This document shows positions 4,670 to 58,309 of a stretch of DNA of 64,000 nt, in pieces. Source of the stretch: Octopus vulgaris. Lineage: Eukaryota. Under the pieces are notes generated by a model. That model searched no databases. It had not been told where the DNA came from and worked only from the letters and a program-made list of their open reading frames with translations. The stretch covers positions 72,478,001 to 72,542,000 of the forward strand of contig OX597826.1 in the NCBI GenBank assembly GCA_951406725.2, given 5' to 3'. The position numbers were made by a program, and so were the translations under genes. The stretch's first letter is position 1. Every line of letters starts with the position of its first letter.

Positions 4670-6380
4670 TTTTCTACTAAAGCCACAAGGCCTGAAATTT
4701 TGGGAAAGGGGACGAGTCGACTAGATCAACCTCAGTGTTTCACTGGTACTTAATTTATCAGCCCTGAAAGGATGAAAGGCAAAGTTGACCTTGATGGAAT
4801 CTAAACTCTGAACATGAAGACAGGATGAAATACCAGTAAGCATTTCACCCAGCATGCTAACAATTCTGTCAGCTCACAACCACCTTCAATAATAATAATA
4901 ATAATAATAATAATTATAATAATAGGTATCCACTAGCTTTCAAAAGTCTTTTAAGTGCTTAGAAAACCTCCCGATACTCTTAGGGACAGGAATGATTATC
5001 AGGAGGGTTCTAAGCACTTAAAAGACTATTGAAAGCTAGTGGATACCTAATGTTACAGGTAGTAACCGGCTACCCATGTAAATTTTACCAGGAATAAGGC
5101 CAAACCTGAGTCAAATCAATAATTATAAATAATAATAATAATTCTTTGCAATTTTGTCACAAGGCCAGTCATCTTGAGGGAAGTTGATTACATTGACTCC
5201 AGTACTTGACTGGTACTTTATTGACCCCTGAAAGGATGCAAGGAAAAGTTGAGCTCAGTGGAATTTGAACCCAGATATGTGAAGAGCCAGAAAAAATTCT
5301 GCTAAGCATTTTGTCCAATGTGCTAATGATTCTACTGGCTGGTCCCTGATTTAGGTACAAGGCCAGTAATTTCAAGAGGGGGTTAGTCAGCAACATCAAT
5401 TTCAGTACTTGACTGGCCCTTAATTTTACCAACACTGGAGGGATGAAAGGTAACGTTAACTTTGATGGGATTTGAACTTGGTATGTAAAGAGCCATAACA
5501 AAAATTGCAAGGCATTTTTTCTCCCAATGCTGCCAGCTTGCCACCTTTTTAAGTAGGGGCTTCTGATTTAGGCACAAGGTTGGTATTTTTTTTTTTTTTA
5601 GGGAGAGACAGGATTAGTCAGTTACATTGATCCCAGCACTTAATTGGTACATTATATTATCAACCCCAGAGGGATGAAAGGCAAAGTTGACCATGGCAGG
5701 ATTTGAACTCAGAGTGTAATGAGTTAGAAGAAATAAATACCACTAGGCATTTTCGCTGATGCTCTAACAACCGTACCAGCTCACTGCCTCAGTAATAATA
5801 ATGATTTCAAATTTTGGCACAAGGCCAGCAATTTCAGGGGAAAAGGAATAGTTGATTATATTGACCCCAGTGTTTAACTGGTACTTATTTTATCAATCTT
5901 GGAAAAATGAATGACAAAGCTGACCTTGGCAGAATTTGAACTCAGAACATCAAGATGGATGAAATGCCACTAAGCATTTTACCTGACATGCTAATGATTC
6001 TGCCAACTCACCAGCTTTTCCTTTTCACTAAAGGCACAAGGCCTCAAATTCGAGGGAAGGGGGCTAGTCACTTATATCCAACCCCAGTGCTCAAATGTTA
6101 CTTATTTCATCGACCCCAAAAGGATGAAAGGTAAAGTTGACAGAGATCGTAAGGATCGATAAAATACCGCTAAGCATTCTGTCTGATGTGCTAATGATTC
6201 TGTCAGCTTGCAATAATAATAATAATAATAATAATAATAATCATAATAATAATGATAATAATAATTTCTAACAAGTTTGGAAAGACAAGGACTGAGTGAA
6301 TTATATCAATGACAGTACATGACTGGTAGTTGTTTTACCAACCCTGGAAGGACAAAACACATAGTCAACCTCAGTACATA
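4670..6380 (-). mobile_element. Cluster of ~7 same-orientation family B SINE copies
   Basis: Repeated CACAAGGCC..GGTACTT..GGATGAAAGGCAAAGTTGACC..GAATTTGAACTCAG..TGCTAA..TTCTGCCAGCT units, several separated by (AAT)n. Confidence 0.8.
4923..5140 (+). mobile_element. 5'-truncated R4/Dong-like non-LTR 3' end with inverted duplication
   Basis: LLGTGMIIRRVLST* (4977-5021) resembles the R4/Dong C-terminus LGTxxIxRxVL; embedded in (AAT)n; arms 4923-4976 and 4997-5049. Confidence 0.55.
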
Positions 6381-7124
6381 AAGATACATAGAATGGTGTC
6401 ACTTAATTTAAAGGCAAGAGTAGTATAAGTTGATTACATGATAATTATTTCCATTTATTTAACCTCTTAACATCTCAACTGTATATATACGAGCAGAAGG
6501 ATGACTTTTTATTCTTCAAAAATGACATCAGTTTAAACATCAGAATTCTAATTTAGCTTAATGTAATTACGGACAGTATCAATAATGTCACAAAAAATGT
6601 CAGTTTGGGAACATGTATGTTCTGTGTTGCAAAATTATTGTTTTCCCACCAATCTAGCCATGACTATCCTGTCTTCTTTTCAAGTATATTACTTTCAGGA
6701 TTGGCTTATTCTATATCTTTAACCGTTTTTGAAGACAATTTAATAGAATTGTATTAAGTATGCAAGTTTTCTTTCAACAAAACAGAAATGTGTGTATTAA
6801 TGATTCAGAAGAATGAAACCATAAGACACGGATAATTGGTTGGATTCCTGAAATTTAGGAAAACAGGATCACAGCCATGAGCTAACGAATTAATCAATTT
6901 GCTGATTACATTATCTGGAATTTTTTCATATTTTAGATTGTATAAAAAGCACCCACTACACTCGCGGAGTGGTTGGCATTAGGAAGGGCATCCAGCTGTA
7001 GAAACACTGCCAGATCAGACTGGAGCCTGGTGCAGCCCCTGGCTTCCCAGACCCCAGTCGAACCGTCCAACCCGTGCTAGCGTGGAAAACGGATGTTAAA
7101 CGATGATGATGATGATGATGATAA

Positions 7125-8220
7125 TCATACGGTTCATTGCATTTCTTGGATTTCCTTGGTTCAATACTCATGTTGATCCCTTTGAAGACTGTGCTGGCCA
7201 CTGCAGCATCCAGATTTTCTAGTATTTTTTAGTAGCTCACTGGGTTATAGTCATGCTGGAAAATCCACAACCAGCTCAAATGACTCTTGGCATATGGAAC
7301 TTATGGGAGTATAATCATTTCCAAGATTTCTAGATAGGCAGAACTGTTGATGATGTTTGGGACCAGCCCTTTTTCTAGAGATGCAGCTCTAAATCATGAC
7401 AGTCATCACTAGTCTTAACTGTCAGCAGACTCATGCACTCCAGATGACATTTGGCTATATGACATCGGACATATACTTGGCCATCAGAGCTGAACAAATG
7501 AAATTTTGGTGCATCCAACCACAAAATTTATTACAAGTCTGATGGTGTCCAGTTTTTACATTGCCGAGCAAACTAAGTACAGGTATGATGATTTTTCAGA
7601 GAAATGTACAAATTTTTATTTTTCTACAAAACATTGTGGAAGATACTGGTTTCATGCAAATGGCACCTGTGCTGGTGGCACATAAAAGTACCCATTACAC
7701 TCTCAGAATGGTTGGTGTAAGGAAGGGCATCCAGCCATAAAAACCAGGCCAAATCAGGCTAGAGTCTGGTGTAGCCTTCCAGCTTGCCAGGCCTGGTCAA
7801 ACTGTCCAACTCATGCCAGCATGGACAACGGATGATAATGATGATGATGATGACATCTTTTAAGTCCAAGCGATTTTAGCAAATTTTTATGGTATTGATA
7901 GGAATGTGACAAGCGGTATTTCCGTTGAAAGTCACACAAAATATCAATGGCTTTCATTTTCCGGTTCTTCATTGACAAACAGCAATTTTATCAGTCCATC
8001 CTCTTAGTATTTGTTTTTCACATGCTTTAATTGAAGATGGTTACAATAGCCATAGCAGCTGAAGTTACTGCGCATCCAACTTCGGAAGTTATGGCTTTAA
8101 AAGCCCATCCCAGTTCCATATTTCTCAATTGCCTCTTTAATGAGGCGTTTTGTTTGTTTTTAACCCCTCACAACAAATCTCAAGATTCTATAATCAAACA
8201 ATTATTTATAGTAGATTTAA
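7125..8220 (-). mobile_element. Decayed Tc1 transposase remnant interrupted by a SINE
   Basis: Minus-strand fragments FARQCKNWT..ILWLDAPKFHLFSSDGQVYVR, FQHDYNP and LQWPAQSS resemble Tc1 motifs WSDESKF, FQQDNDPKH and WPAQSPDL. Confidence 0.65.
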
Positions 8221-19788: not shown

Positions 19789-19820
<32 letters not shown>

Positions 19821-19826
<6 letters not shown>

Positions 19827-20409
19827 ATAGAAGGAGTTTACAGGACTAGAACTGTTTCATTCAAATGAAATCATCAGGAAGCTTTGTGTCAAGAATAGTT
19901 TTGGCATTTATACATTTAGGCAGATTTAAAGGGGTGGTGGTGGGGACTTTTTGGGGTAGGCATGGCGCAAACTGTCTTTCTTAGGGGAGTGGTCAAAAGA
20001 ATCAGTGATAAAGTAGATAAAGGAATAAATAGAATAATAGAATAGAGTTTTAGGTAAATAAGAAGACTATATGCAAGCACGCGCACACATATATCTACAC
20101 ACATATATATAAAAAACAATATATATGTGTGTAGATATATGTGTGCGCGTGCTTGCATATAGTCTTCTTATTTACCTAAAACTCTATTCTATTATTCTAT
20201 TTATTCCTTTATCTACTTTATCACTGATTCTTTTGACCACTCCCCTAAGAAAGACAGTTTGCCATGCCCTACCCCAAAAAGTCCCCACCACCACCCCTTT
20301 AAATCTGCCTAAATGTATAAATGCCAAAACTATTCTTGACACAAAGCTTCCTGATGATTTCATTTGAATGAAACAGTTCTAGTCCTGTAGAAGCTCCTTC
20401 TAAAAAATA
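19821..20409. repeat. Near-perfect ~290-bp inverted repeat, probably inverted Penelope-like pseudo-LTRs
   Basis: 19821-20110 is the reverse complement of 20119-20409 apart from a few small differences; 8-nt spacer; flanked by (TA)n; contains a hammerhead motif. Confidence 0.85.
20345..20395 (+). ncRNA. Type I hammerhead ribozyme candidate
   Basis: Stem I AGCUUC/GAAGCU, CUGAUGA core, short stem II UUCA/UGAA (non-canonical U-U closing), GAAA, stem III ACAG/CUGU, cleavage triplet GUA after 20389. Confidence 0.7.
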
Positions 20410-20998
20410 AATTAATTTACTCTGCTATGTATTGAGTACCTTATTTACTGTGGTTAACCCCGACTCAACCCGGGACCTACATATATATATATAACGGGAA
20501 GGTTTACGAAAATAAACAAAAGACGAAGGCAGGTGGAGTGTACCTGGAAGATAAGGGATTCTCTTCCCCATGCGATATATGCACCTGTCCCAATTTACTC
20601 ACTTCACAACACACATACAAACACATTTTTTATGGGTCCCATTGGAGTGACACATAACCATTCCTAAAACAACATTGACAAATGCTCTATAAAAGATGGA
20701 TACAGACATGCTTGAGAAAATAGCAAACTGGGATCTCTAAACATTATTTTTGCATTCTCACAGCATTTGTTAACTCTGAATATCCTTGCTAATCTTCAAT
20801 ATCTTTGCTAACCCTAAATGTTTCTTGCATGTTTCTCATTTAACCTTCTTTGTAACTTTCAACACTTCTATGAATTTTTCTCAAAGATGCACCTAAATTC
20901 TTGTTCTAAGAAAGGAAACTCCTGATGCATTTCTTAAACCATTAATAATAATAATAATAATAATATTAATAATAATGAGATAATAAAATGTGACAAAC

Positions 20999-21119: not shown

Positions 21120-21464
21120 CTGACACAACAAACACAACAAAATCATCATGATCATCATCGTCATTATTATCACCATCATCATCATCATAATTAACTACAA
21201 CAACAACAACAACATTACCCAATTATTCAATCATTTCAGAAATCCACAGAACCATGAAATCTCTCCTTCCAACCCAATTCAGAATACCACAAAAACTCTC
21301 TCAAGCATATCCAGCACCTGTAGATGTCCTGGTTTGCCATTGTCATTACACTGGTCTCACTAATCTACAAGATCATTTAAAGATCATGGCTACTGTCCAT
21401 GCTCCTCTTACTAGCATATGAAAATGGCATTTTAAGTAGGGTGAGATGGGAGGTGAAACCAGGT

Positions 21465-21856
21465 TGTGGCTATTACTCCCAGGGAGCCTAATTCTGCAGT
21501 GAGGTTTAACTATGGAATTACAACCGTGTTTCGTGGTCTGCTACCACACCAGCTCCTTTATAGGATCCAGTTAGCTCAAGACATCATCAGGAGGAACCAC
21601 GTCCGGTTTCGGCCCCTACTCCTCTACCGTTTTGACATGGCGGGGCCCCCCCTTTCGGAGGTGTCTTCAGCTCTGGTGTTGGGTGCACGTCTTCTTTCTT
21701 CTGTTCCCTGGCCTCTTCGATGTATCATCAGCGAGTGTCAGCCGGTGACTGATTGACTTGTCAAATTGTTCCCTTTAAATACCTGCCTGCCACCAATAAA
21801 CATTGGTGGCATGTTTATCTTCTTTATCTAGTTGTGGGGAAAGGTATACTGTCACA
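21465..21856 (-). mobile_element. LTR-like element containing hammerhead-like cores
   Basis: On minus strand TGTGAC...GCCACA termini, purine run AAGAGG just upstream (PPT-like), TATTTAAAG box, CpG-rich; three CTGA(T/A)GA and two stem-CGAAAC boxes; no TSD seen. Confidence 0.5.
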
Positions 21857-21939
21857 CCTCTTAAGGCTAGGTGGACCGTTCCTTTTGTGGAACCTACTTA
21901 TATTTAAGTAGACTGGGCTGTTGATATTACTTTGGCCGG

Positions 21940-22560
21940 GAACAGTACAGTGACCTATACCACTTAGTGGTACCTATACACAGCAAAGTCAATGAACTGT
22001 TGACAGCATCATGGTTATGATCACAGTTCAGTGGACTATACTACACTGTTGTATCTACTTAAAGCAAAGCAGATTGCTGATAGTTAAGTATCTTGTTCAC
22101 TGACACTGTAGAGTGAACTATACTGTTGTGTGGTACAAATGGGTTGACTGATCAATTTGTAACTGAATATCTTGATCATAAACATAGTACAGTTGACTTG
22201 GTCATGGATAAAATACAGTGAACTATACCACTCAGTGGTATCTACGTACAGCTAGGCAGACTGCAGATTGAACATCTAAGTGTGCTGAGTACAGTTGTCT
22301 TGGTTATGAACACAATACCATGAACTACATCACACTGCGGTACGTAACAAACTGGACTGTTGTCATTTAAATGTCATGGTCGTGGACACAGTACAGTGAA
22401 CTGCACCATATTGAGGTATCTACTTACAAGGTGGACTGGTCATTTGATGGCTCATTGTCATGTTCATGGACACAGTACAGAGAATTATATCACTCAGTGC
22501 TACCTTCATGCAGGTAAATATACTGGGCAGTGTATTGGTAATGGACACAGCAGAATGCAA
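21940..22560. repeat. Degenerate tandem repeat
   Basis: Recurrent CATGGACACAGTACAGTGAACTATACCAC..GGTATCTAC units. Confidence 0.65.
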
Positions 22561-22778
22561 ACATTTGAACCAGTAGCATATCAGTTAGTTGTGTGATACC
22601 CTAACAATTTCTTGAAGAAACATCAACGAGGCAGCAACACTGAGATGAAGCAACAAGTACTGGTTACAAGCTAAAGCTGTAGGGGAAGAGAGCAAGTGTA
22701 GGACTCAAGTTGAAGATAATTTGTGAAAAAAAAAAACCTAGTTAAATTAGATGAGGAAACAATCAACATAAGAAATAC

Positions 22779-23012
22779 CTATTTCTTTACAACCCACAAG
22801 GGGCTAAACACAGAGAGGACAAACAAGGACAGACAAATGGATTAAGTCGATTATATCGACCCCAGTGCGTAACTGGTATTTATTTATCGACCACGAAAGG
22901 ATGAAAGGCAAAGTCGACCTCGGCGGAATTTGAACTCAGAACGTATCGGCAGACGAAATACGGCTACGCATTTCGCCCAGCATGCTAACGATTCTGCCAA
23001 CTCACTGCCTTG
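22779..23012 (-). mobile_element. Young family B SINE with 14-bp TSD
   Basis: TSD AACATAAGAAATAC at 22765-22778 and 23013-23026; CpGs retained; near-identical copy at ~27830-28052. Confidence 0.9.
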
Positions 23013-26949: not shown

Positions 26950-29900
26950 AGCACAAATATGAGGCCCGTACAGAATTCATACATACTAGGAAGCAGAATA
27001 GGGAGTGATTGTTGTAAATAGTAAATTTTCTTTGATGGTGATTAGTGACATTTGAGTAAGAGCTAGATGGACCTTGGGACACATCACAAGTTAGAGAAAG
27101 AAGGTATAGCAACTGAAAGGTCTCTCAGACAGGTATAGATTCATTAGGAGAAGAGTGAGACTGAGACCTCTAACATACAAGAAAATAGGGAGTTTCTATA
27201 AGACAACTTGCTACAAGCCACAGACCAGGTCTGTAAATGAATCAAAGCATCAGCCAGATCATCGTCGTCATCGTTGTCGTGTCATCATCATCATCATTTA
27301 ATGTCTGCTTTCCATGCTAGCATGGGTTGGACGATTTGACTGAAGACTGGTGAACCAGATGGCTGCACCAGGCCCCAATCTTGATCTGGCGGAATTTCTA
27401 CAGCTGGATGCCCTTCCTAATGCCAACCACTCCGAGAGTGTAGTGGGTGCTTTTACGTGCCACTGGCACGTGGGCCAGTCAGGCAGTACTGGCAACAGCC
27501 ATGCTCAAATGGTGTTTTTTACGTGCCACCTGCACAGGAGCCAGTCCAGTGGCACTGGCAACGACCTCGCTCGAATGCGTTTATATAGTATTGTATGATA
27601 AACAGATGAAGGTATAAAGAGCGAGAAACATTCTTGGAAAGAATAGCAGAAAATGGATAGCAAGGAACAATATCAGACTATATGAAGAAAAGATTGACAC
27701 CAAGTATACTTTGCCAGGAGAGAAACAGAAAGTAAGAGCTTTGTCAATGTTTTAGGATATGAAGATTGTAAAGCAACATATCATTATGAAACAGAAAACC
27801 ATCGGTGAATAAAAGCTCCATAATTATATATTTCTTTACTACCCACAAGGGGCTAAACATAGAGGGGACAAACAAGGACAGACATAAGTATTAAGTCGAT
27901 TACATCAACCCCAGTGCGTAACTGGTACTTAATTCATCGACCCCGAAAGGATGAAAGGCAAAGTCGACCTCGGCGGAATTTGAACTCAGAACGTAACGGC
28001 AGACGAAATACAGCTACACATTTCGCCCGGCGTGCTAACAATTCTGCCAGCTTATAGTGGTGCAATCACCTTCACTGATGCTAAAATAAAAAGGAATCAT
28101 GGGAATGCTACTACAAGAGGTTACTGAATGAGGAGAATGCATGGGAAAGAGAGGGCCTATGTTAGCCAAAAAGAGGAACCAGCAATTGAAATTGATCCCT
28201 AAAAATATAGTTGAAATTAGATGTTAAAGATAGAGAAAGCCATCATGGCTAGCCTCAGAGATATTGAAAATATCTATAACATATAAGATAAAGATCCTAC
28301 TTGAGTCATATAGATTCACAGGACTGGTTTCCCAGTTTCTGTGGTGTATATATATTTTTGCACCTTGATGGGATGCTGGTCTATTGCAGGAAATACTCAT
28401 TTTTGTCAGCTGAATGGACTGGAGCAATGTGAAATGAAATGCTTTGCTCAAGAACAATGCATTGGCTTATCCAGGAATTGAAACCACAATCTTATGATCA
28501 TGAGTCCAACACCTTAACCACCAAGCCATGCACCTCCACATTGAAAATATCTAATGAAGACTTATGCTGTTCATTTGCATAGATGGTAAAGCAGTACAGG
28601 AAGGAGTGACTCCTAATCACAAATGTAACAATATCACCATCAACAGGTATAAGGGTAAAATTAAAATATTAGGAAGAAGTAAGTACAGAGATATCAAACT
28701 AATTAGGAAGAAAAATTAACTGAGATGAAGTGTAGATCCGATTTATGCCAGGGTGGTGTGTCACTGTTGCTCTTTCCCTAGTGAGACAACAAGAGCAAGT
28801 TCAAAATAAATAGCGACACATACTTAGCATTCGTAAATCTAGAGAAGACACTTCATAGAGTACCAAACTGTCTTCTAGTTGTTGCTAAGGAAACTGGCTG
28901 AAGATGAATGGCTTATGAGGGCTATTCTAACCAGGTACAGGTATACTGTGATGTATTTAGCGATGTATTCAGAGAAGAATATCGTGCAAGCAGGTGTCCA
29001 TCATGTCGTTATTCTCAGACCACTTTTGTTTATTAGAGTTCTCCAGGCCATAACAGAAGAATGTAAGACCAGTTGTCTGTGAGAACTTCTGTATGCTGAT
29101 GACCTAGTTTTCACAATTAAATCTGCCCAAGAATTGGAGAAGAAATTTCATATGCAGAGGGAAAGCCTAGAAATGAAAGCTCTTAAAGTAAAGCTAGCAG
29201 AAGAAAGGAAAAAAAAGTTTTAGTTAGCAACAAGAAACAACATATGACTCTACAGCCATCTTGGAAATGACCATGCTCAATATGACAAAAAGATGAAGCC
29301 AGTAATCTTTATATATAAAAGTGAAGTTGTGTGTCTGTCTCCTACGATTTAGATTCCTAACTACTCCCACATTTTGCGGTGCAGTTTAACCAAAAGCGGG
29401 TATCTTATAGTCGTGATTCATATCGAGCCCTTCTGGGTATTAGCGCGCGTCTACGATGAGTCTACGATTAAAAAAATTTTACCGTCATTTTTTCCCATTT
29501 TGAATGCATTTTTTTGCTATTATATAAGGGAAGTAACTCTCTAAAAATGCTTATATAGTTATTTCCCTTACAAACCCGAGCAACGCCGGGCGATACTGCT
29601 AGTTTCATATAATGAGCTAAAATTAAACAACAAAATGTAGAAGAGATGCACTGGGGTTATAGGTAGACTGACAAAGATGGATTTCCTATACAGCACATGC
29701 AAAGGAATAGCTAAGGGGAAAGAGTAACCATAAAATAAAATTTTTTTGATTAGATTTTGATCAGAGTGCTCTAAAGATGTAGTTAATTGCTTCTGTTACC
29801 TAGATGATATAATTAGAAGCTGAGACAGGTATACCAAAAACACAGTAGTCAAAATAAAAACAAGGAAAAAAAAAGTTCAGGGCAGACTGAATGATGCTTA

Positions 29901-36960: not shown

Positions 36961-39245
36961 CTGAAAACGAAACAGGATTCCTTAAATAATCAGTTATTAT
37001 CATCATTATTTTTTCCTCAGTTCCTTTATACTTGTTATCATAAAGACTAACATTACACACCCAGAAATCACAATGGCTTGTTTCATCCTGGTTAACATAA
37101 TTCCAAGAATATTGTGCACATCCTGGAGGAAATGGGAGTAAAACTGCAACAAACTCCTTTTGATGAACTGAACTCCTGATAAAAAATATCTGTATGAATC
37201 ATAACTCTATTTAAGACATTTTTAAGCATTGACGTAACTCACTTCTTTGGGTGAGTGTGTCAATATTTATCTTCCTATTTAGAGATGATCTCATCATTGA
37301 TATTTCACAATGTCCTTTTAGATTTTATCTGTTAGCTTAAAGTGTTAACCAATTTACAGTGCAAAGCTGACAAGGTAACAGCTGTCACTATAGATCACGT
37401 CCAGTACAGGGTAATGTGAAAGGGTTAACATTACTAGCAATGGGCTTTATATATTGAGGGGTTATGTACCTCCAATCTCAAACCGTTTTATATAACAAGA
37501 TATCTTATTTTGGAGTTAAACCTTTTTTTCCATTTCATTTATTTTTTGTTCATCAATGGTAAAACCCCCTTGTTTTGGCATCCGTGTCGGTGACACGTAA
37601 AAGCACCAACCAATCGTGGCCATTTGCCAGCCTCCTCTGGCCCCTGTGCTGGTGGCACGTAAAAAGCACCCACTACACTCACAGAGTGGTTGGCATTAGG
37701 AAAGGCATCCAGCTGTAGAAACACTGCCAAATCAGACTGGAGCCTGGTGCAGTCTCCTGGCTTCCCAGACCCCGGTCAAACTGTCCAACCTATGCTAGTG
37801 TGGAAAACGGACATTAAACGATGATGATGATGATTTAGTTAACCATATTCTAGTTCATATGTATATTCAGACAGAGTCTATCTTAGACTGCATTACGTAA
37901 AGTATCCTTCTTTCTCTTTAAAGTCAGCAGACCAAGCTTCCTTATTGGATTGGAAGGAGTAGCAATTTTTCATAGAAGATATTACGTAGTAGCATCAGCT
38001 GCTATAAACTGGAAATAGCTGCTTGAAAGCATGAATGAACAATGTGTGCTCTATCAGGAACAGATAGTATAAAGTTTTGAGGACTTACACATCCTGTCAA
38101 TAAGCATTTGTTTTAGTTGAGATACAAAGCCTTTTTTGTACAGTGATGAAAGTATAGTCAGTTGTGAAATAAACTAAACTATTGAGTAATTTTAGGATGA
38201 GTACCAACACCAATTAAATATCTAATTTCGTTTCTTTTGACTTTTTTTTTTGATTGATAACTTGTCTCTCTCCAGAACTGCCAAACTTTGCCTTGTTGTA
38301 GTATCTTCAGTTTCCTCCATCTTTAGTTTCTATTCTGTTGATTGCACTAACTCAATCTAAGAGGTTGTAGTGCTAAATAATAAACCACATGGACAAGAGT
38401 TCAAACCTTACTACAGTTGCTCTCAAGTTGAGGATGATATATTCTTCTTTGCCCCCATCTGCCTAATTGACAATAGATTCCATTCCTACTTTAAAAGCAG
38501 GACAAGAGTCAAGCTGTTGCTGTTATTGTTTAGCCCCAGGACAGCTCTGATGGTCAAAGCTGTGGTCAAACTGATGCTCAAAGCTGTGCTCATCTGTGTT
38601 TTTCTTTCTTTCCTTTTTTTTCTTATCTTTACATGTAGTATATCTATGACAATGTTACCTGAAGTAGCATTCCCTTTCTAAGCAGGTAGGATGTGATTTG
38701 AAGGCGATATGTCTGCTATTTCTAGCAGATCAAGCAACTACATAGAGGCTTCTTCATTGCCTAAAGGGGCACCAAGCTGTAAAAATAGCAGCATCAACTA
38801 TGTAATAAATTATCCACCACCAAATATAAAACAGTTCACAAAGTAGAATAAAAGAAAAGAAACATTTAAGAGAATGTTCTTTTGGAAGACAAAAGGACTA
38901 AAATTCTAATGGTAGATAAAAATCACTGTTTTAAAACTACGAAACTAAAAACAGTGACTAAAAACTAAGTTGTTTTTTCTCTTTTTAAGCAACATTAAAA
39001 GGGTAAAATTTAAAAATAGAAAATACAAAAACCAAAAACCAAAAAAAGAAAAAGAAAAGCAACTATTCTTGAGTAATAATTTTGGATGTAATATTGGGTA
39101 TTTTGGTCTCAGCAAAATGCCAAAATCTCCAATATAACTCACAGCACATATTCCCTCAAGTCAAGTTTAGTTTAACATAGATTAAAGTAAGGTTAGCAGA
39201 GGCATTCACCCCATCTAAACTAACATGGCACGTAAGAAATAAAAT

Positions 39246-40652: not shown

Positions 40653-42594
40653 ACATACTTACCTTAAATAGACATTATTCAACTGAAGGTATATTATTGT
40701 ATGTTTTGTTGTATGACACATATTTTCAGAAACTGTGGTCAGTTATAGTAACCCCAGGATTTCACTGATACTTAGTGAAGCACCAGTGAAACAATGGATT
40801 CTAGGATGATGAGATGTAAATGTTGACTTTGATAGGATTTGAACTTGGGATGTAAAGAGATATAACTAAATATTCCAGTGCTCTACTAATTCTGTCATCC
40901 ACCACAATAATAAGAATAAAAACTCTCTGTTTTACTACATGCCCAGATATATTTGCAATATTAAAAAAAGAAAAAAATAACTGGGGTTAATTATACTGAT
41001 CCCAGATCAAAATAAGATTCAGTAAGATTTGCAGGGTGGGTCAGCAAAAAAGACACCCACCTCATAAATAATTTCGTATTTGGAAAGTAGACAGGAATTA
41101 GTCAGAGACAATAAAAATTATGTGAGGTTCATGCTTCCCTCAGGGGGGAAGTCTGGTGAATAAGTTGAGTGAGTCAGCATAAAATAGGAATGAAAACTGG
41201 TTTCAGGACACTGACTTTGTAAATAGAAGATCATCATCATCATCATCATTGTCGTTTAACGTCCGCTTTCCATGCTAGCATGGGTTGGACAATTTGATTG
41301 AGGACTGGTGAACCAGATGGCTGCACCAGGCTCCAATCTTGATCTAGCAGAGTTTTTACAGCTGGATGCCCTTCCTAATGCCAACCACTCTGAGAGTGTA
41401 GTGGGTGCTTTTACGTGCCACCGGCACGAGGGCCAGTTAGGCGGTACTGGCAACAGCCATGAAAAAATCATGTTTTTTAAATTTTCTTTTTAATTTAAAA
41501 TATATATATATATATCATCATCATCATCATCGTTTAGCGTCCGCTTTCCATGCTAGCATGGGTTGGACGGGTCAACTGGGGTCTGTGAAGCTGGAAGGCT
41601 TTGTCAGGCCCAGTCAGATCTGGCAGTGTTTCTACGGCTGGATGCCCTTCCTAACGCCAACCACTCCGCGAGTGTAGTGGGTGTTTTTTACGTGCCACCT
41701 GCACAGGTGCCAGACAGAGCTGGCGAACGGCCACGAACGGATGGTGCTTTTATGTGTCACCGGCACGGGGCCAGGTGATGCTGGCAACGGACACGAACAG
41801 ATGGTGCTTTTACGTATATATATATATATACAATTTGGCAGTGCAAGACCAGACTGAAATATTGCTCCGAATCTTTGTTTTCATCCAGATCAGTTCTGGA
41901 TACTAATAACCAAAATTGTATCTCCTTTAAGGCATTGCATATCCAGGACAAAACTATCCGAGGTGTTTATCTTTAATCCTTTACTTGTTCCAGTCATTAG
42001 ACTGCGGCCATGCTGGGGCACTGAAGAATTTTTAGCTGAATGAACTGACCCCGGTACTTATTTTTTTGTTAAGCTTTGTACTTAGTCTATCAGTGTCTTT
42101 AGCCAAACTGCTAAGTTATGGGTACGTAGACAACCCAACGCTGGTTGTCAAGTGGTGGTGGGCGACAAACACAAAGACACACACACACATGACTGGATTC
42201 TTTCAGTTTCCCTTTACTAAAATCCAGCCAAAAGGCTTTAGTCAGCCTGAGGCTGTAACAGAAAACACTTGCTTAAGGTGCCACACCATGGGACTGAACT
42301 TGGAACCATGTGGTTGGGAAGCAAACTTCTTACCCCACAGCCATGCCTAACAGATGATCAGATAACTTTGATGATCAGTGTTGTCAGTGTGTTATAGGTA
42401 TGAACTGTGTAATTAATACCTGTGTTGTAGATCACCTTGTGAAGGGGTTAGTGGAGTCACACAACAAAAGTGAGGCTAATTACAAAGTAATCAATGAACT
42501 TATTGGAAAATAAATGTTCCTTGATAAAAAAAATCAATGTTGTGTGTGGTGGGTGTCATAATTGGATCAAAGGTTACTTCAACATCATCAGCCC

Positions 42595-51400: not shown

Positions 51401-52408
51401 TTGTTCCTTTTCGTTTATCAATACTCAAGTGACTGTATTGCTCAGGGAATGATTAAGTTAATCGTTTGGAAGCACTATAGCCAATTTAATCGATCTACAT
51501 ACTTGGCTAGTACTTTATTTTATCAACCTTCCCACAGAATGATGAAAGCTTCAAGTGGATACTGGTAGAATATGAACTCAGAACATAAAGAGAAGAGACT
51601 GAATACTGCAAAATATTTGGTCTGATGTTCTATTGATTCTGATAGACAAATTTATTTTCTGTTGGAAAAATAACAGTAAAATTGGGAATTTGAAGAAACT
51701 GATGATGGTCTACAAAGAGAAAAAAATTTTTGATAGAAGAATTCATAAAAGAATTTGGTAAGCTCATTTTCTGCAAGGAATGAAGATTCTAAGCTTTGCT
51801 CTCCATGAATTCAACATATCAAACCCTTCCACACCTCACAAAAAGACATTAAATAATTAACCGATTTATTGCCAGTAATTATTTTAAGATTGTATGAAAT
51901 AGCTGATACTTTTAATGAAGTCTATTAAAACTTCATCCTCTGGCAGGAGAAAATCTGCCTTAGCTCAGAAGCTTCAGCTACAGTTAGTAAACGCCCGGAG
52001 AGAATTAACAGAATTTTATTTACCCAGAATCCAAATAGCTAATTTTCAGTGAGTAAGCGAATAATTGTGGCAAGAGATTTTCAAAATTAGTGAGGAAGAG
52101 GATAGTTGATAAAATTGCCAATTCAGTATGTCACTGGGGCATATTTAGAAATAAATAGAAAAAAGAAGGGCAAAGTCAACCTCAGCAGGATTTGAATTCA
52201 GAATATAAAGGGAGCAAATACAGCAAAATATTTTGTTTGTTATCTGATTAAAAATTTAATAATTAACTTTGAAAAATACACAAACAAGTTTTAAAAAAAC
52301 CCATATATACACATAAATATAAATGTATATATATATGTTCACATTGCAATTACACAATGTTGTAATGTCTAATATTACATATATCTCACATATATAATAC
52401 CTGTAATA

Positions 52409-52465
<57 letters not shown>

Positions 52466-52471
52466 TACATA

Positions 52472-53749
52472 CAGGATGCAATGGGTAAATTGTCACCATT
52501 TTATATTTTTAATTTCGTGCATGCACATTGTTTGTTTTTGATTTTGTTGACTACACAGTATAGTAGGGTCAGTTGGGCACTGTCTGTGAGAAAACCAGCA
52601 CCATGACACAAGTCACTCTGCCAGAAATTTAGAAACGGCAAGAAGCACCAATACGAACATTTCAGAATGTTTGGGTAACAATCTGAGGACAGTGCAGAGG
52701 ATTCAGTAAGGGTTGGATGAGTCTAATGGTGATTAGGAAGGTACGGCAGCTCAGAAAACTCACTCTGATCATTCTGATAAGAAAAGAACTCCTGAATTTG
52801 TTGGTGAGGTCCAGGCCACGATTGGCAGCAAACCCTCCAAGTCAATCAGGTCCATCGCCAGGGACATGGGAGTGTCTAAGTTTCTTATTAGGCAGGTAGT
52901 GCATGAAGACATTCAGTATTCTCATACAAGATGAGAAAGGGCCACTTTTTATTCCAAGCCATCAAGGACAAGAGGAAAGACCATGCTATGAAGCTTTTGA
53001 ACAAACTCAAGCACTCCCTCCAACTGAACATGCTTTGGTTTTTCTCAGACGAGAAAAAATTCTGCCAGTATTAGATGGTGGACACACAGAAAAACCGTTG
53101 GCTTGCTATGTTCCCAAAGCATGTACCATGAATGATAAAAATCAAACATCCAGTCAACATCATGGTGTTTGGAATGATCACTAGTGATAGAGATGTTGTG
53201 CTGCTATTATCTTCCCACATGGCCTCAGACTCAATACGGAGGCTTACATCAAGTGCCTGGAGGAGGTAATTTTGCCCTTGGTCAAGAGGGTGGCTGTTGG
53301 AAGACCCTATGTCTGGCAACAGGACTCTGCACTATGCCACACAAGCAAGAGGACCCAGTCATGGCTGTCAGATAATTTCTGCAACCTAATCACCCTTAAC
53401 ATCTGGCCACCTAACTCCTCAGACTGCAACCCTCTTGGTTATTATGTGTGGGGGCACAGTTGAGCAAGAGACCAACAAAACTCCTTGTAACACCAAAGAT
53501 GAACTGAAGGCAAGGATTATGGCAGCATTCACCAACTTAAACAAAGAGACCGTTCAGAAGAGTTGCAGGAGATTCTGAAGTTGTCTGGAGGCTGTGGTTG
53601 AAGTCAATGGCAATTTTGTTGAATAAATTTACTCTTTAGTATTTCAAGACATTTTTATCTAATTTTGGTAAATATATCTGTTAAAGCGAAATGTCAGTGT
53701 CATTTTCATTTTTGCGTAATTTAGATGATAATTTATTTATCACACCCTG
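52472..53749 (+). mobile_element. Full-length decayed DD37D (maT-type) Tc1/mariner transposon
   Basis: TA TSD; imperfect TIRs CAGGATGCAATGGGTAAATTGTCA / TGATAATTTATTTATCACACCCTG; WFFSDEK and WQQD-37 residues-G (third D mutated) in WPPNSSDCNPLGY; frameshifts. Confidence 0.85.
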
Positions 53750-56700
53750 TATATATGCATCTTGTCTTTTTTTTAATTTGGTAAAAAATACAAAACAAAG
53801 ATTAATTAGAGCAAATAATCAAATATAGATTGGTTAAATAGGTTTATATTAGTAAAGTTTGATTAGTTAAAATCAGTAACACATGAACACAAGGCCAGAA
53901 AGTCTTACATGAACACAAGACCAGGGAAATTTTGGTGGAAGGCAACAGTCAATTATATTGACCCCAGGTTTGACTGGTACTTATTTTATCAACCTCCAAA
54001 AGGATGAAAGGCAAAGTCGACCTTGGTAGGATTTGAATACTTGTATTAGTAATAATATTAACATAACAAACACATGATATGGATAAGTAACAGGTGTGGA
54101 AAGCTTCAATCAACAAAAGTGTTAGAACAATATTGAGGGAAGGGAGTGAGGAACAGAAAAAAACAAGGAGATTCACAGCCTTTGTGTGTACACATGCATA
54201 TATGCTGTGTGTATTTGTGAGCGTGTATGTGTGTGTACATGTATATGTGTATCAGAACATATGTATGCATGTGTGTGTGTATGTGTGTGTACATGTAATA
54301 ATGAAAATTGTTATATGGTATAAAGTATTTATTACTTGTTTGTGTCAGTATTAAAATGTACTTGTCCAGTATAATCATCGTTATAAATGCCTCATGGTTA
54401 ATTACACAGCACAGAATACATTGTCTGTAATTTCAATGTGAAGTAGTTACATTGTGAGCAAGTAACATTATTGGTAAATTCATTGTCAGTTTTTTAAATA
54501 TTCACTGAATAAACACATCACAAAACGTTATTTAAAGCTTTTATTCAGAGGCTAAATATATTGCATTTTATTAACAAGAAGAAATTCAAAAAGAAAAATC
54601 ATTAATATTGAATTTATTATCTCTGCCTTAGCAACGGTCCATGGACAAGATATCTCAAGAACCGCTGGATGGATTCAGATGAAACTGTCAGAGACGTTTG
54701 GCCTTGTGGCTGGCACGAACTGATTAGATTTTGGGACAAGGATTCTGGATTATCTTTCCTGTTTTTTAATTTAATTTTTGAGAGCAGTCAGGTTCATATT
54801 TAGTATTATTGTTTGTGAGAGCAGTCGAGTTTATTTCAGATATTTTCATTAAAAAAAATCATCTGTGGCTAATCGTTGTGAAGATGTTGGTGTTGCCTTG
54901 GTGGAGGTTTGCATTCTCTGAGTGCTCTTCTTCAATTTATGGGTCTTTCTAATTTTGGCACAAGGACAGAAGTTCTGAGGGAGGGGGAATCTGATTACAT
55001 TGACCCCAGTGTTCAACTCATACTTATTTTATCGACCCTGAAAGGACGAAAGGCAAAGTTGATCTCAGTGAAATTTGAACTCAGAGCAGGAAGGAATGTT
55101 GCTAAGCATTATTCCTGGTGTGGTTATGATTCTGCCAGCTTGCTGCCTTCACTTAATATATAATCTTTTATCTTTTTACTGGTTTCAGTCATTGGACTGT
55201 GGTCATATTGGAGCACTCACTGCTTTGATGAGAGCAAATCAACTCTAGAACTTATTGTTTGAAGCGGACAACACACATGTATGTATGTTTGTATGTATCC
55301 ACACACAACAGGCTTCCCCACAGTTTCTGTCTACCAAATTCACTCACAAAGCGTTGGACATTTGTTCCAAGGTACTGTGTAGTGGGACTGAACCCAAAAT
55401 CACATGGCTGCAAAGTAAGCTTTTTGACCAAACACCCAAATGTCTGTGCCTTAAAAAAAAATTTCTTTTTAAGTATCACACATACAACAAAAAGATAATA
55501 AAAAGACAAATTATGAGCAATGTATCTTAAATAATTCAGTACTTTTTGACTTTGATTTTCATTGACAATGCAAATCTATCTGTACTACCATTATGCATCC
55601 TTCAATAATGAAAAGAAATTTGTCTTTGAATTTCTTTTACGTTGTCCCAGTGCCACATAAAAAGCACCTGTATTGGTACCATGTATAAAGCACCCATGCA
55701 GGTACCACGTTAAAGCACTGGTGCTGGTGCCGTGTAAAAAGCACCCAGTACACTCTGTAAAGACATTGGCATTAGGAAGGGCATCCAGCTGTAGAAATCC
55801 TGCCAGAACAAAAACAAATGGAGCCTGGTGCAGCTCTCTGGTTGGTTGGCTCCTGTCAAACCGTCCAACCCAAGGCAGCATGGAAAATGGATGTTAAATG
55901 ATGGCAATGATGATATTAAGGAAATGTGATGCATTTAATTTTGCAAATTAAAAAAGAAAAAAAAATCTTCATAGTTTAGTAATGTATTTACTTTGTGGAT
56001 ACTGACCAATCATGTATTGGTTTGCAATGGACTTACTAGCTAATCTAATTCCAGACAATGTGATGTAATTATCCCACAATGAATTTACTGTGAATTATAA
56101 ATGTGACATGTTTGTAGAGGTAGGAGTGGTAACGTCTCTCACTCTTGCCATCCATGGTGAGTCTAAGTAAGGTCTACCCTTCCCATATCTCCCATGTCAA
56201 CCGTCAGCAGGAGTGAGCTACAAGAAAGAAGTAGCTATTCTCAAATGCTACTAACTGCAGACTAACTACAGAGCACATTAGAATTCAGGCCTCCACATCC
56301 TCAAGATGAAAATTAACATTCAAGTTATTGAAAGGTAAGGGTACCAGAATTGGCAGTTGTTAGTAACAAATCTATAACCTATTGGTTTGTGGTTCAAGCC
56401 CTGTCAAGGATCAATAAAACAGAAAGAGAAATAGAAGTAGCTAGTAGTAAGAGATAGAAAGGATAAGATCTTAAATTGACTGTTTATATGGTAGATCAAT
56501 TGTCATAGCTTTCAGCTCACATTCTACAAGGTTATTGTTTAATGTCAGGTTAGTCCTGTTTGAACAAACTGATGATCAGAGGCATTCTAGCCTTGGTTAT
56601 CTAGAACTATCTCTGTTAAAAACAGCGGGGTTTAATTTAAAGGAAATCTGGCTGCTATTTCTAGCAAGTCGAAGAACCATGTAGAGACGCCTTCAATGCT

Positions 56701-56986: not shown

Positions 56987-58309
56987 TTGGGTCATCTCAT
57001 AAATAATGTGGGTTTTTTATACTTCTTTTATTTTTCAAAATTAAGATAAACAAAGTTCTTTTTTAATCTAAAATATACTCTCCTTCATTTTCTACAATAC
57101 TCTTCCATCTATCAGGTAGACTTGCAAAGCCCCTCTTCCAATATTCACTTATCTGTAACAAAATATAATCCTCCATTATTGTTCTGACCTTGTCTACAGA
57201 ATTCATATATTTTCTGTCCAAATGATTTTGAAGAATGCAAAATAAATGATAATCTGATTGGGTAATGTCTGGCGAATATGGTGGGTGGGGCATCGTTTCC
57301 CATTCACTCTGCTCTAGCCTTTGGAATGTCATCCTTGCTGTGTGTGACTGAGCATTATCCTGATGGAAGAACACCTTTTGTCTTGAAACCAAAGATGGTC
57401 AGTTTTCTTCTAGTGCTGACTTAAGCCCCTCCAGCTGCTCACATTAGATCTCTTTTGTTATCATTTGGTTTGGGTTTAAATGTTCAAAGTGGACTAAACC
57501 TTTCATATCCCACCAAACAGATAACAACACCTTACATGGGTGAAGATCTTCTTTAACCTAGGATGCAGGTATTTCTCCTTTTCCTACCCACTGTCTTTGG
57601 CACTTGACATTTTTATAGAGAACCCATTTCTTGTCACCAGTCACCATTTGGTCCAAAAATGGTTCATTCATGAGACGTGACAGCAAAGAAGAGCACACAT
57701 TCACTCTCTGCATGCAATTAGACTCAGAAAGTTTGTGGGGAACCCACTGACCTAATTTGCTGACTTTTCTAATGGCATGCAGGTGTTGATGAAAGGTTGC
57801 ATGACCAAATCCAAGCTTCTCTGCTAGTTCAACAGTTATGGTGGGATTTTGTTCCACCAGGATTTGCAGGCTGTCCTTGTTGAGCTCTACAGATCTTCCA
57901 TGACATGGCTTGTCTTCAAGGCTATAATTTCCAGCTCAGAATTTCTGGAACTACTGTTATGGCCTATTTGGTCTATTTATACAATAAATTTATGATTCAT
58001 ACTGGCTTACTTTTATTGTCTGATCCCCATATACTGCATTAATATTCCTCACACTTTCCATTGCATTGTTGCCTTTATTGAACTCAAAGCAAAGTATGTC
58101 AAATATGCTCCTTTGTCACTTTTATTATAGTTTTGAAAAAATAAACGTTAAAATTGAACTGCACTCTTCAAAACTTACACTAAGAATAAGCACAAGGTAA
58201 AATTACTACCTGCTTTTATTGCAAGCTGATGGAGGTAGTTTATCCTGTCCCCCTCTGACTTTTAGTTCATGAAGTTGAAAAAAAACGCATTATTTATGGG
58301 ATGACCCAA
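56987..58309 (-). mobile_element. Full-length decayed DD34D mariner transposon
   Basis: TA TSD; TIRs TTGGGTCATCTCATAAATAATG / CATTATTTATGGGATGACCCAA; WVPHKL, VTGDKKW, HQDNA..YSPDITQSDY with 34-residue spacing. Confidence 0.92.

What the first reader, a model, noticed from the sequence alone, without database searches (positions are those of the whole stretch)
21465..21856. LTR-like element packed with hammerhead cores: possible animal LTR-type retrozyme
Seen (minus strand): a 392-bp CpG-rich TG...CA unit preceded by a short purine tract, with CUGAUGA (21731-21725), CUGAAGA (21670-21664), CUGAUGA (21590-21584), and two GAAAC boxes each directly after a perfect stem (GGCCCC/GGGGCC; GUGGU/ACCAC). 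One type III fold is available: GUA (21627-21625) followed by GAGGA pairing with UCCUC just before CUGAUGA, stem GUGGU/ACCAC before GAAAC, and an imperfect stem III (AAACGGU vs ACACGGUU). In both downstream cores an extra hairpin sits between CUGANGA and stem II. Established: type III hammerheads in LTRs define plant retrozymes, while animal hammerheads are mostly type I in Penelope elements and non-LTR retrozymes; four-way variants with an added stem are known. Inference: an LTR element with one or more interlocked hammerheads, in sense orientation to the host intron. The folds are imperfect, so this copy may be dead.
Basis: partly seen in the sequence, partly recalled or inferred. Interest (0 to 1): 0.8.

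Follow-up and report, generated by a model that had tools for sequence, protein, structure and literature searches.

The report
Animal repeat with scrambled hammerhead ribozyme
This is not an LTR but one truncated copy of a very abundant animal genomic repeat whose RNA holds the parts of a self-cutting hammerhead ribozyme in a rare shuffled order previously described only in environmental RNA; whether it cuts has not been tested.

Summary
The boxes and stems are real, but the LTR frame is wrong. Contigs from four runs show a very abundant repeat at about 21514-21786 only, with a sharp 3' end and a tapering 5' side on the minus strand. A single-copy contig from another organism joins 21799 directly to 21489, so the TG, the CA and the purine tract are host DNA, and there is no target duplication. 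The proposed type III fold has only a 2-bp stem III. The best hammerhead core has the non-circular order S-G-C (Eckert 2023): GUA 21627-25, CGAAA 21611-07, CUGAUGAUG 21590-82. Stem I has 5 Watson-Crick pairs, stem III has 4, and the 3-nt linker matches HRIMA-1. With the boxes fixed, 467 of 100,000 shuffles match these stems in any order and 2 with that spacing. Stem II is the weak point: flawed in the SGC register, or perfect if the upstream GGCCCC supplies it, which opens the core at A9/G10.1. The copy fails the published strict SGC descriptor on two counts. Covariation, cleavage and the parent element (Penelope-like is the best guess) are untested.

The parts
21490..21798 (-). Insertion relative to the orthologous empty site; no target-site duplication beyond an AA ambiguity
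   Evidence: table 8: X15 record 25 (depth 15.7) lies on 22700-21799 with record letters 134-1072 and on 21489-21230 with 1073-1324. One contig in one run. Junction letters.
21514..21786 (-). Body of the high-copy repeat; sharp 3' end at 21514, variable 5' side
   Evidence: summed depth 4.1e5-7.1e5 (X1) and 2.0e5-6.3e5 (X15) over 21530-21729 against 44.9 and 15.7 in the flank; loose ends at 21514 in 134, 44, 8 and 2 contigs of X1, X15, X13, X11.
21490..21513 (.). 24 nt present here and in X1, absent from the empty site, not shared by the family: filler, or host DNA lost in the other organism
   Evidence: tables 3 and 8 (single-copy depth 44.9 at 21492-21502).
21788..21811 (.). 5' junction: 10 nt of the insert are an inverted copy of the adjacent host flank
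   Evidence: 10-pair hairpin 21788-21811; other copies run on differently beyond 21786/21787 (table 7).
21747..21781 (-). TATA-like TATTTAAA and, about 30 nt downstream, an initiator-like TCAGTC; possible internal promoter
   Evidence: Sequence; the motif labels are recalled; family depth falls steeply upstream of about 21730. Function inferred.
21725..21731 (-). CUGAUGA box 1; no stem I partner in this copy
   Evidence: no UH site gives 4 or more stem I pairs.
21648..21670 (-). CUGAAGA box 2 followed by a GAAA-loop hairpin; no stem I partner in this copy
21642..21647 (-). GGCCCC: pairs perfectly with GGGGCC (21616-11) and would supply G10.1; either an alternative stem II or an inhibitory strand
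   Evidence: duplex -12.5 kcal/mol; pair probability 0.78-0.86 in nested folds; 386 of 50,000 shuffles.
21620..21629 (-). Block S: stem III strand CGGU, predicted cleavage after GUA (21625|21624), stem I strand GAGGA
21604..21619 (-). 3-nt linker, stem II strand GGGGCC, block G (GAAA 21610-07) and stem III strand ACCG
   Evidence: compared by eye with the HRIMA-1 alignment.
21596..21603 (-). GACGUGGU: extends stem III with 21641-34, or its GUGGU forms the stem I-II interaction helix
   Evidence: table 7 loose ends at 21574 and 21633.
21578..21595 (-). Block C: stem I strand UCCUC, CUGAUGAUG, and the weak SGC stem II strand
21514..21547 (-). 3' module: GUGGU/ACCAC hairpin, GAAAC, 3-bp stem III hairpin, GUA 21521-19; the 3' half of a type I-like core with no stem I partner in this copy

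Best explanation
The unit is a 5'-truncated, non-coding copy of a very abundant retroposed repeat, most likely derived from the pseudo-LTR of a Penelope-like element or a similar target-primed element. Shown: its boundaries, the one-sided taper, the empty orthologous site, no target duplication. Its minus-strand RNA can form a hammerhead core in the non-circular order S-G-C (type SGC): the strand before GUA pairs with the strand after the first GAAA (stem III), the strand after GUA pairs with UCCUC before the last CUGAUGA (stem I), and UGUCUU pairs loosely with GGGGC (stem II). Shown: the pairings and their rarity in shuffles. Inferred: that the fold is selected in the family and cleaves between 21625 and 21624, inside the element; that it processes read-through or tandem transcripts; and that the upstream GGCCCC strand holds it off in full-length RNA. 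This copy is probably slow or dead.
For:: of all box triples in 21490-21798 the top one is SGC, stem I 5 Watson-Crick plus 2 wobble pairs, stem III 4 Watson-Crick pairs. (boxes fixed, local shuffles): 467 of 100,000 reach both stems in any order, 67 in SGC order, 2 with 12-15 nt spacing; a relaxed SGC pattern hits once in 128 kb of window (this site), 0 times in 38.4 Mb of shuffled window and 0 of 100,000 shuffled inserts; that pattern was written after seeing the site. The layout follows HRIMA-1: 5-nt stem I strand, 3-nt linker, CGAAA, CUGAUGAUG, and a GUGGU strand directly before the stem I partner. table 7: loose ends of 12 (X1) and 15 (X15) contigs read GCCAC after stem II, which pairs with that GUGGU; loose ends of 27 and 8+28 contigs turn a U.G in the stem III extension into C-G. 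Retroposon-like profile: sharp 3' end, depth 5.9e5, 8.0e4, 8.5e3, 0 in successive X1 bins from 21680 to 21879; 5' truncation and complex junctions are described for Penelope-like elements.
Against: The copy fails the published strict SGC descriptor twice: 3 pairs beyond U16.1-A15.1 where 4 are asked, and a U.C mismatch next to G10.1-C11.1. The SGC stem II is weak (-3.3 kcal/mol as a duplex) against -12.5 for GGCCCC/GGGGCC, and its probability is 0.0 in four nested folds (these folds cannot form pseudoknots). The change counts list no A>C in X1, X13 or X11, so that mismatch is apparently not a G in 8% or more of those copies; 90 variant rows were not shown. X1 depth dips over 21580-21679 (4.1-4.5e5) against both sides (5.9e5, 7.1e5), and 5 of the 15 joints shown skip about 21572-21651, so the core is not uniformly kept. 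Loose ends come only from contigs that broke off there, a biased sample. The interaction helix is broken in this copy. Eckert et al. searched RefSeq 85 and found no SGC RNA in genomes of known organisms. Two CUGANGA boxes and the 3' module are left unexplained. No RT or endonuclease ORF links the repeat to a parent.
Confidence: 0.45

Rival explanations
1. Same S, G and C blocks and same stems I and III, but stem II is the perfect GGCCCC/GGGGCC helix. The core is then both non-circularly permuted and opened between A9 and G10.1, with G10.1 coming from 21647.
For: All three stems are then perfect (5, 6, 4 pairs) with G10.1-C11.1. Both CGAAAC boxes are closed by perfect G-starting stems, 20 of 50,000 shuffles. 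Loose ends keep at least GGCC there (table 7). A 12-nt link from stem II to stem III seems long enough (my estimate).
Against: Published alignments keep CUGAnGA within 1-2 nt of stem II. The helix excludes the stem III extension. Some copies appear to have lost two of the Cs (tables 4, 7). The only precedent I saw is in unchecked AI notes on phages, which are leads only.
Confidence: 0.2
2. An ordinary Penelope pseudo-LTR relic with two or three decayed type I or minimal hammerheads in tandem (box 2 with the first GAAAC, box 3 with the second GAAAC and GUA 21521-19), working if at all as dimers; the S-G-C pairings are by-products of internal duplication.
For: Minimal type I hammerheads are common and variable in metazoan Penelope-like elements. 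The 3' module has a type I-like stem II hairpin, GAAAC, a 3-bp stem III and GUA. UUCCUC-like letters precede box 3 and end the family, and X1 has a 21600 to 21514 tandem joint at depth 521 (table 5c).
Against: Boxes 1 and 2 have no stem I partner, and box 3 pairs only with the upstream GUA sites. Type I folds need 16-nt and 36-nt inserts after A9. Rfam hammerhead models give nothing at E<=10. Duplication makes similar strands, not complementary ones.
Confidence: 0.2
3. A structured SINE-like or non-LTR 3' fragment with no working ribozyme; the helices serve RT recognition or are frozen history.
For: No loose-end pile at 21624/21625 among the 24 rows shown (388 not shown), so cleavage does not visibly set insert ends. 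In one Penelope-like element, hammerhead cleavage was not needed for insertion in vitro.
Against: Three CUGANGA boxes (0 of 20,000 shuffles) and a complete GUA, CGAAA, CUGAUGAUG set with matching stems are hard to get without a hammerhead history. No tRNA head.
Confidence: 0.12
4. One reading: a solo or 3' LTR of an animal LTR-type retrozyme with a type III hammerhead.
For: TG and CA dinucleotides, AAGAGG upstream, TATA-like and initiator-like motifs, 392 bp; plant retrozyme LTRs are 300-400 bp.
Against: The proposed ends and purine tract are single-copy and persist in the empty-site contig; depth tapers on one side only; no 4-bp duplication; no second copy in the window; 2-bp stem III.
Confidence: 0.03

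Closest known systems
Type-SGC hammerhead ribozymes (HRIMA-1 motif and SGC variants; Eckert et al. 2023, PMC10085705)
   Same: Block order S-G-C; 5-bp stem I; 3-nt linker from stem I to stem II; CGAAA; CUGAUGAUG; a candidate interaction strand directly before the stem I partner.
   Different: Reported only from metatranscriptome RNA (583 sequences, listed habitat soil), none in genomes of known organisms; here it lies in a high-copy animal genomic repeat. Different stem I letters, 14 instead of the usual 13 nt between the cut and G12, flawed stem II, a competing upstream strand, extra boxes.
Penelope-like element pseudo-LTRs with minimal type I hammerheads (Cervera and de la Pena 2014, PMC4209133; Craig et al. 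2021, PMC8557442)
   Same: Dispersed 5'-truncated copies with hammerhead boxes near the 3' end, an extra nucleotide after A9, complex 5' junction, no clear target duplication.
   Different: Those motifs are type I with a palindromic or absent stem III and act as dimers; here stem III is a 4-bp helix to an upstream GUA. No ORF was linked.
Animal non-LTR retrozymes (Cervera and de la Pena 2020, PMC7229834; bioRxiv 10.64898/2026.07.22.740005)
   Same: Non-coding hammerhead repeat of about 300 bp in an animal, proposed to derive from Penelope-like elements.
   Different: They are tandem arrays with canonical type I ribozymes and are reported as depleted from introns in vertebrates; this copy is single, intronic, 52% GC and not type I.
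Plant LTR retrozymes (Cervera et al. 2016, PMC4918200)
   Same: Size near one LTR; hammerhead boxes.
   Different: No paired LTRs, PBS, PPT, 4-bp duplication or good type III fold here.

Membership tests
LTR retrozyme / solo LTR | TG...CA ends belong to the repeat | tested here: not met
   single-copy or zero depth at both proposed ends; both kept in the empty-site contig.
LTR retrozyme / solo LTR | 4-bp target-site duplication | tested here: not met
LTR retrozyme / solo LTR | Polypurine tract or PBS next to the LTR, or a paired LTR | tested here: not met
   AAGAGG lies 58 nt outside the insertion in host DNA; no second copy in the window.
LTR retrozyme / solo LTR | Type III hammerhead with stems I-III | tested here: not met
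   stem III 2 pairs; stem II only across a 36-nt insert.
Type-SGC hammerhead | Order S-G-C with UH, CGAAA and CUGAUGAUG | tested here: met
   descriptor.
Type-SGC hammerhead | Stem I of 4-7 pairs, linkers of 0-8 and 0-15 nt | tested here: met
   5 Watson-Crick plus 2 wobble pairs; linkers 3 and 8 nt.
Type-SGC hammerhead | Stem III of 4 or more pairs beyond U16.1-A15.1 (strict descriptor) | tested here: not met
   3 pairs, then a 4-nt bulge and 8 further pairs. Some HRIMA-1 rows also show a short stem III.
Type-SGC hammerhead | Stem II of 2 or more contiguous pairs beyond G10.1-C11.1 | tested here: not met
   U.C mismatch then 3 pairs; 4 pairs (3 wobbles) if one C is bulged.
Type-SGC hammerhead | [quoted passage not shown] | tested here: inconclusive
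   Weak in this copy (-2.3); 5 pairs possible in loose ends of 12 and 15 contigs; a distal ACCAC competes (-8.9).
Type-SGC hammerhead | Covariation in stems I-III | not testable with these tools
   No genome held; no homolog among 25 fetched loci; one search returns unlinked, truncated variant lists.
Type-SGC hammerhead | Site-specific self-cleavage | not testable with these tools
   Needs an assay; contigs cannot show RNA ends.
Penelope-like element pseudo-LTR | Many dispersed copies, fixed 3' end, 5' truncation | tested here: met
   tables 2 and 7; shared with all target-primed elements, so not specific.
Penelope-like element pseudo-LTR | Minimal type I hammerhead | tested here: not met
   no type I fold with a stem I.
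Penelope-like element pseudo-LTR | Inverted 5' copy and optional 30-40 bp tail | tested here: inconclusive
   The inversion is 10 nt of host DNA; the 24 extra nt are not family-shared.
Penelope-like element pseudo-LTR | Linked RT plus GIY-YIG ORF in some copies | not testable with these tools
   No long ORF beside this copy; the family could not be walked upstream.
Non-LTR retrozyme | Tandem monomers with a canonical type I hammerhead | tested here: not met
   No tandem array here; Rfam empty; one tandem joint of the 3' module in X1.
Non-LTR retrozyme | Circular RNA | not testable with these tools
   Only contigs were on offer; none of the 15 joints shown is in X13 or X11, 14 not shown.

The most novel reading that the evidence does not exclude
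An animal retroelement family present in roughly ten thousand or more copies carries an active, pseudoknotted, non-circularly permuted hammerhead (type SGC, or an SGC-ordered core opened between A9 and G10.1), switched by competing helices. It would be the first such ribozyme in the genome of a known organism with covariation support, and the copies would give a large natural mutagenesis set and a record of how the permutation arose from tandem type I modules.
Probability: 0.5. Interest if true: 0.85.

Novelty: new variant of a known kind. Interest (0 to 1): 0.68.

Why it matters
Non-circular hammerhead permutations were described in 2023 from environmental sequences; that paper found no SGC example in genomes of known organisms and left their origin open. 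A genomic family with thousands of copies would make covariation, activity and origin directly testable, and would show that descriptor searches miss a class of animal ribozymes. Copies also sit in introns and, by guessed-RNA contigs, in transcripts, so active ones could cut host RNAs. If the pairings do not hold across the family, this is an ordinary truncated Penelope-like relic.

Tried and rejected
Own-genome search: no genome held. Rfam: nothing. Pattern scans for relatives: 8, 1 and 5 hits to an 18-mer in metagenome, viral and genome contigs and 11 hits to a 17-mer in viral contigs; none of the 25 loci aligned beyond 22 nt, so all are chance. A gapped S-G pattern found 0 loci in genome and viral contigs. 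No second copy in the window by blastn or nhmmer. No tRNA. The bacterial promoter scan is not informative here. Pfam: 0 of 6 ORFs elsewhere in the window matched. Earlier findings by place, by sequence and by two word searches: nothing. CSG, GCS and type I folds with boxes 1 and 2 were rejected for lack of stem I. An internal TGGTAGCAGA (21546-37) resembles an initiator-Met PBS (recalled) but lies inside the repeat's hairpin, not after an end. Lunse et al. 2017 was not held, so its Penelope variants were not compared. Repbase and Dfam were not available, so the family may already have a name.

Full report
Observation. The density is not chance: none of 20,000 dinucleotide shuffles of 21490-21798 holds three CUGANGA boxes, and with the boxes held fixed only 20 of 50,000 local shuffles give both perfect stems before the two GAAAC boxes. 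Rfam finds nothing in the window at gathering scores or at E up to 10 around the unit. The window is AT-rich eukaryotic DNA with microsatellites and dispersed repeats. Open frames with splice signals at about 23415 onward and 21119-20999 on the minus strand place the unit in a sense-strand intron (inferred, gene not identified). The neighbouring repeats look like octopus SINEs to me; that is recalled and no call confirms it.

True boundaries. No genome is held, so I laid contigs of 4 of the 24 listed runs on 21230-22700 at 80% likeness. 4804, 2023, 125 and 72 contigs were laid from X1, X15, X13 and X11. Summed depth over 21530-21729 is 4.1e5-7.1e5 in X1 and 2.0e5-6.3e5 in X15, against 44.9 and 15.7 in the left flank. 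The tool warns that this is no copy number; I read it only as about four orders of magnitude above single copy. The end at 21514 is sharp (134, 44, 8 and 2 contigs run on into sequence with 0.38-0.63 agreement), while the other side tapers (X1 bins from 21680: 5.9e5, 8.0e4, 8.5e3, 0). X15 record 25, at single-copy depth, lies on 22700-21799 with its letters 134-1072 and on 21489-21230 with 1073-1324: an orthologous site without 21490-21798. This is one contig in one run, and a deletion there cannot be excluded. Either way the TG (21856), the CA (21465) and AAGAGG are single-copy host DNA. X1 record 1 bridges the 3' junction and X11 record 16 the 5' junction, so the insertion is not peculiar to this assembly. 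There is no target duplication beyond an AA ambiguity, 10 nt of host flank are copied inverted at the 5' junction, and 24 non-family nt lie at the 3' side. The LTR reading fails; the profile is that of a 5'-truncated, target-primed insertion.

The hammerhead. I enumerated all combinations of C (CUGANGA), G (GAAA) and S (UH) blocks. The same GUA pairs with the first GAAAC through four Watson-Crick pairs (CGGU/ACCG), extended by 8 pairs after a 4-nt bulge. This gives the order S-G-C, the non-circular permutation shown to cleave by Eckert et al. (PMC10085705). Their HRIMA-1 alignment runs: stem III strand, UH, 5-nt stem I strand, 3-nt linker, stem II strand, CGAAA, stem III partner, interaction strand, stem I partner, CUGAUGAUG, stem II partner, a purine, interaction partner. 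The unit follows this with GAGGA, GUA, GGGGCC, GAAA, CCG, GAC, GUGGU, UCCUC, CUGAUGAUG. With boxes fixed and the rest shuffled locally, 467 of 100,000 trials reach stem I of 5 and stem III of 4 Watson-Crick pairs in any order, 67 in SGC order, and 2 with 12-15 nt between cut and G12. A relaxed SGC pattern hits only this site in the window and none in 38.4 Mb of shuffles; it was written after seeing the site, so 0.5% is the fairer figure. Loose ends give two hints from other copies: GCCAC after stem II in 12 (X1) and 15 (X15) contigs, which would pair with GUGGU, and a U.G to C-G change in the stem III extension in 27, 28 and 8 contigs (table 7). These come only from contigs that broke off there.

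Against. The copy fails the strict published SGC descriptor on stem III length and on a U.C mismatch beside G10.1-C11.1, so I do not file it as a member; it is built like one. That stem II is weak (-3.3 kcal/mol) and is outcompeted by GGCCCC/GGGGCC (-12.5; probability 0.78-0.86 in nested folds). No A>C change is listed for X1, X13 or X11, so the mismatch does not look like a private mutation from G; 90 variant rows were hidden. X1 depth is lower over the core than on either side, and 5 of 15 joints shown skip about 21572-21651, so part of the family is divergent or rearranged there (X15 keeps full depth over 21580-21629). Boxes 1 and 2 have no stem I partner, nor has the 3' module. Eckert et al. 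searched RefSeq 85 without an SGC hit in known organisms; the two descriptor failures could explain a miss, but I cannot show that this genome was searched.

How it probably works. Transcription from the host gene, or from the TATA-like and initiator-like pair at 21781-21747 (labels recalled), gives an RNA that can fold a doubly pseudoknotted core and cut at 21625|21624, inside the element. The upstream GGCCCC either blocks stem II in full-length RNA (best explanation, 0.45) or is itself stem II, which opens the core between A9 and G10.1 (0.2). The cut does not visibly set insertion ends (no loose-end pile there among 24 rows shown, 388 hidden). That agrees with a Penelope-like element whose ends are set by internal RT initiation and whose hammerhead was dispensable in vitro. 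The parent is most likely a Penelope-like element, since these are the animal elements reported to carry hammerheads near a 3' repeat with 5' truncation and complex junctions, but no ORF links them. A decayed tandem of ordinary type I motifs (0.2), a non-catalytic structured repeat (0.12) and the LTR retrozyme (0.03) remain as rivals.

Literature seen. PMC10085705: parts 1-6 of 8 of the text, supplement parts 5 and 8 of 42 and two supplement searches. PMC4209133: parts 1-2 of 4. PMC11167929: parts 1-2 of 4. bioRxiv 10.64898/2026.07.22.740005: part 1 of 5; its supplements are closed. Passages only: PMC8557442, PMC4918200, PMC7229834, PMC6765202, PMC10886601, PMC8967140, PMC6962438; their supplements, which may list cephalopod repeats or hammerheads, were not opened. 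Ten searches listed no paper on a non-circularly permuted hammerhead in an animal genome or retroelement; I saw at most 30 rows of each, and the library lacks most subscription papers, including Lunse 2017.

Verdict. Observation partly confirmed, LTR reading rejected, hammerhead reading recast as a candidate SGC-ordered ribozyme in a high-copy animal repeat. New variant of a known kind; interest 0.68; 0.85 if covariation and cleavage hold (probability about 0.5).

Noticed in passing
window 19809-20419: Long nested inverted repeat: 144 nt at 100% with 8 nt between arms, flanked by 152 nt at 91% (I3 and I5). A recent fold-back or an assembly artefact.
   Followed up: no
window 21942-22520: Degenerate repeats at 65-85% identity with offsets of about 76-90 nt and multiples; parts are mid-copy (depth 150-300) and the stretch is present in the empty-site contig, so it is not part of the insertion.
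   Followed up: partly
window 21561 and 21574 (table 7): X15 loose ends (11 contigs, agreement 0.99; 15 contigs, 0.89) point to subfamilies that share the S-G-C side but differ in the 3' module; one reads GAGGU where this copy has the second GUGGU.
   Followed up: no
window 21514 and 21787 (table 7): In all four runs the family seems to run about 5 nt past 21514 into AT-rich or microsatellite-like flanks, and 18 X1 contigs continue past 21787 with a shared sequence, the handle for finding longer copies.
   Followed up: partly
window 21119-20999 and from 23415, minus strand: Two probable small exons of an unidentified host gene, by splice signals and open frames.
   Followed up: partly
window 4715-6369, 22844-23011, 27894-28061, 52109-55140; 408-720, 6943-7129, 37582-37847, 41229-41768: Two dispersed SINE-like families with many copies in the window (D11-D16 and D18-D20), one ending in a GAT repeat.
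   Followed up: no
window 57063-57935 (-) and 53191-53463 (+): Broken ORFs with motifs I recall from mariner/Tc1 transposases; Pfam gave no match at E 0.001.
   Followed up: partly
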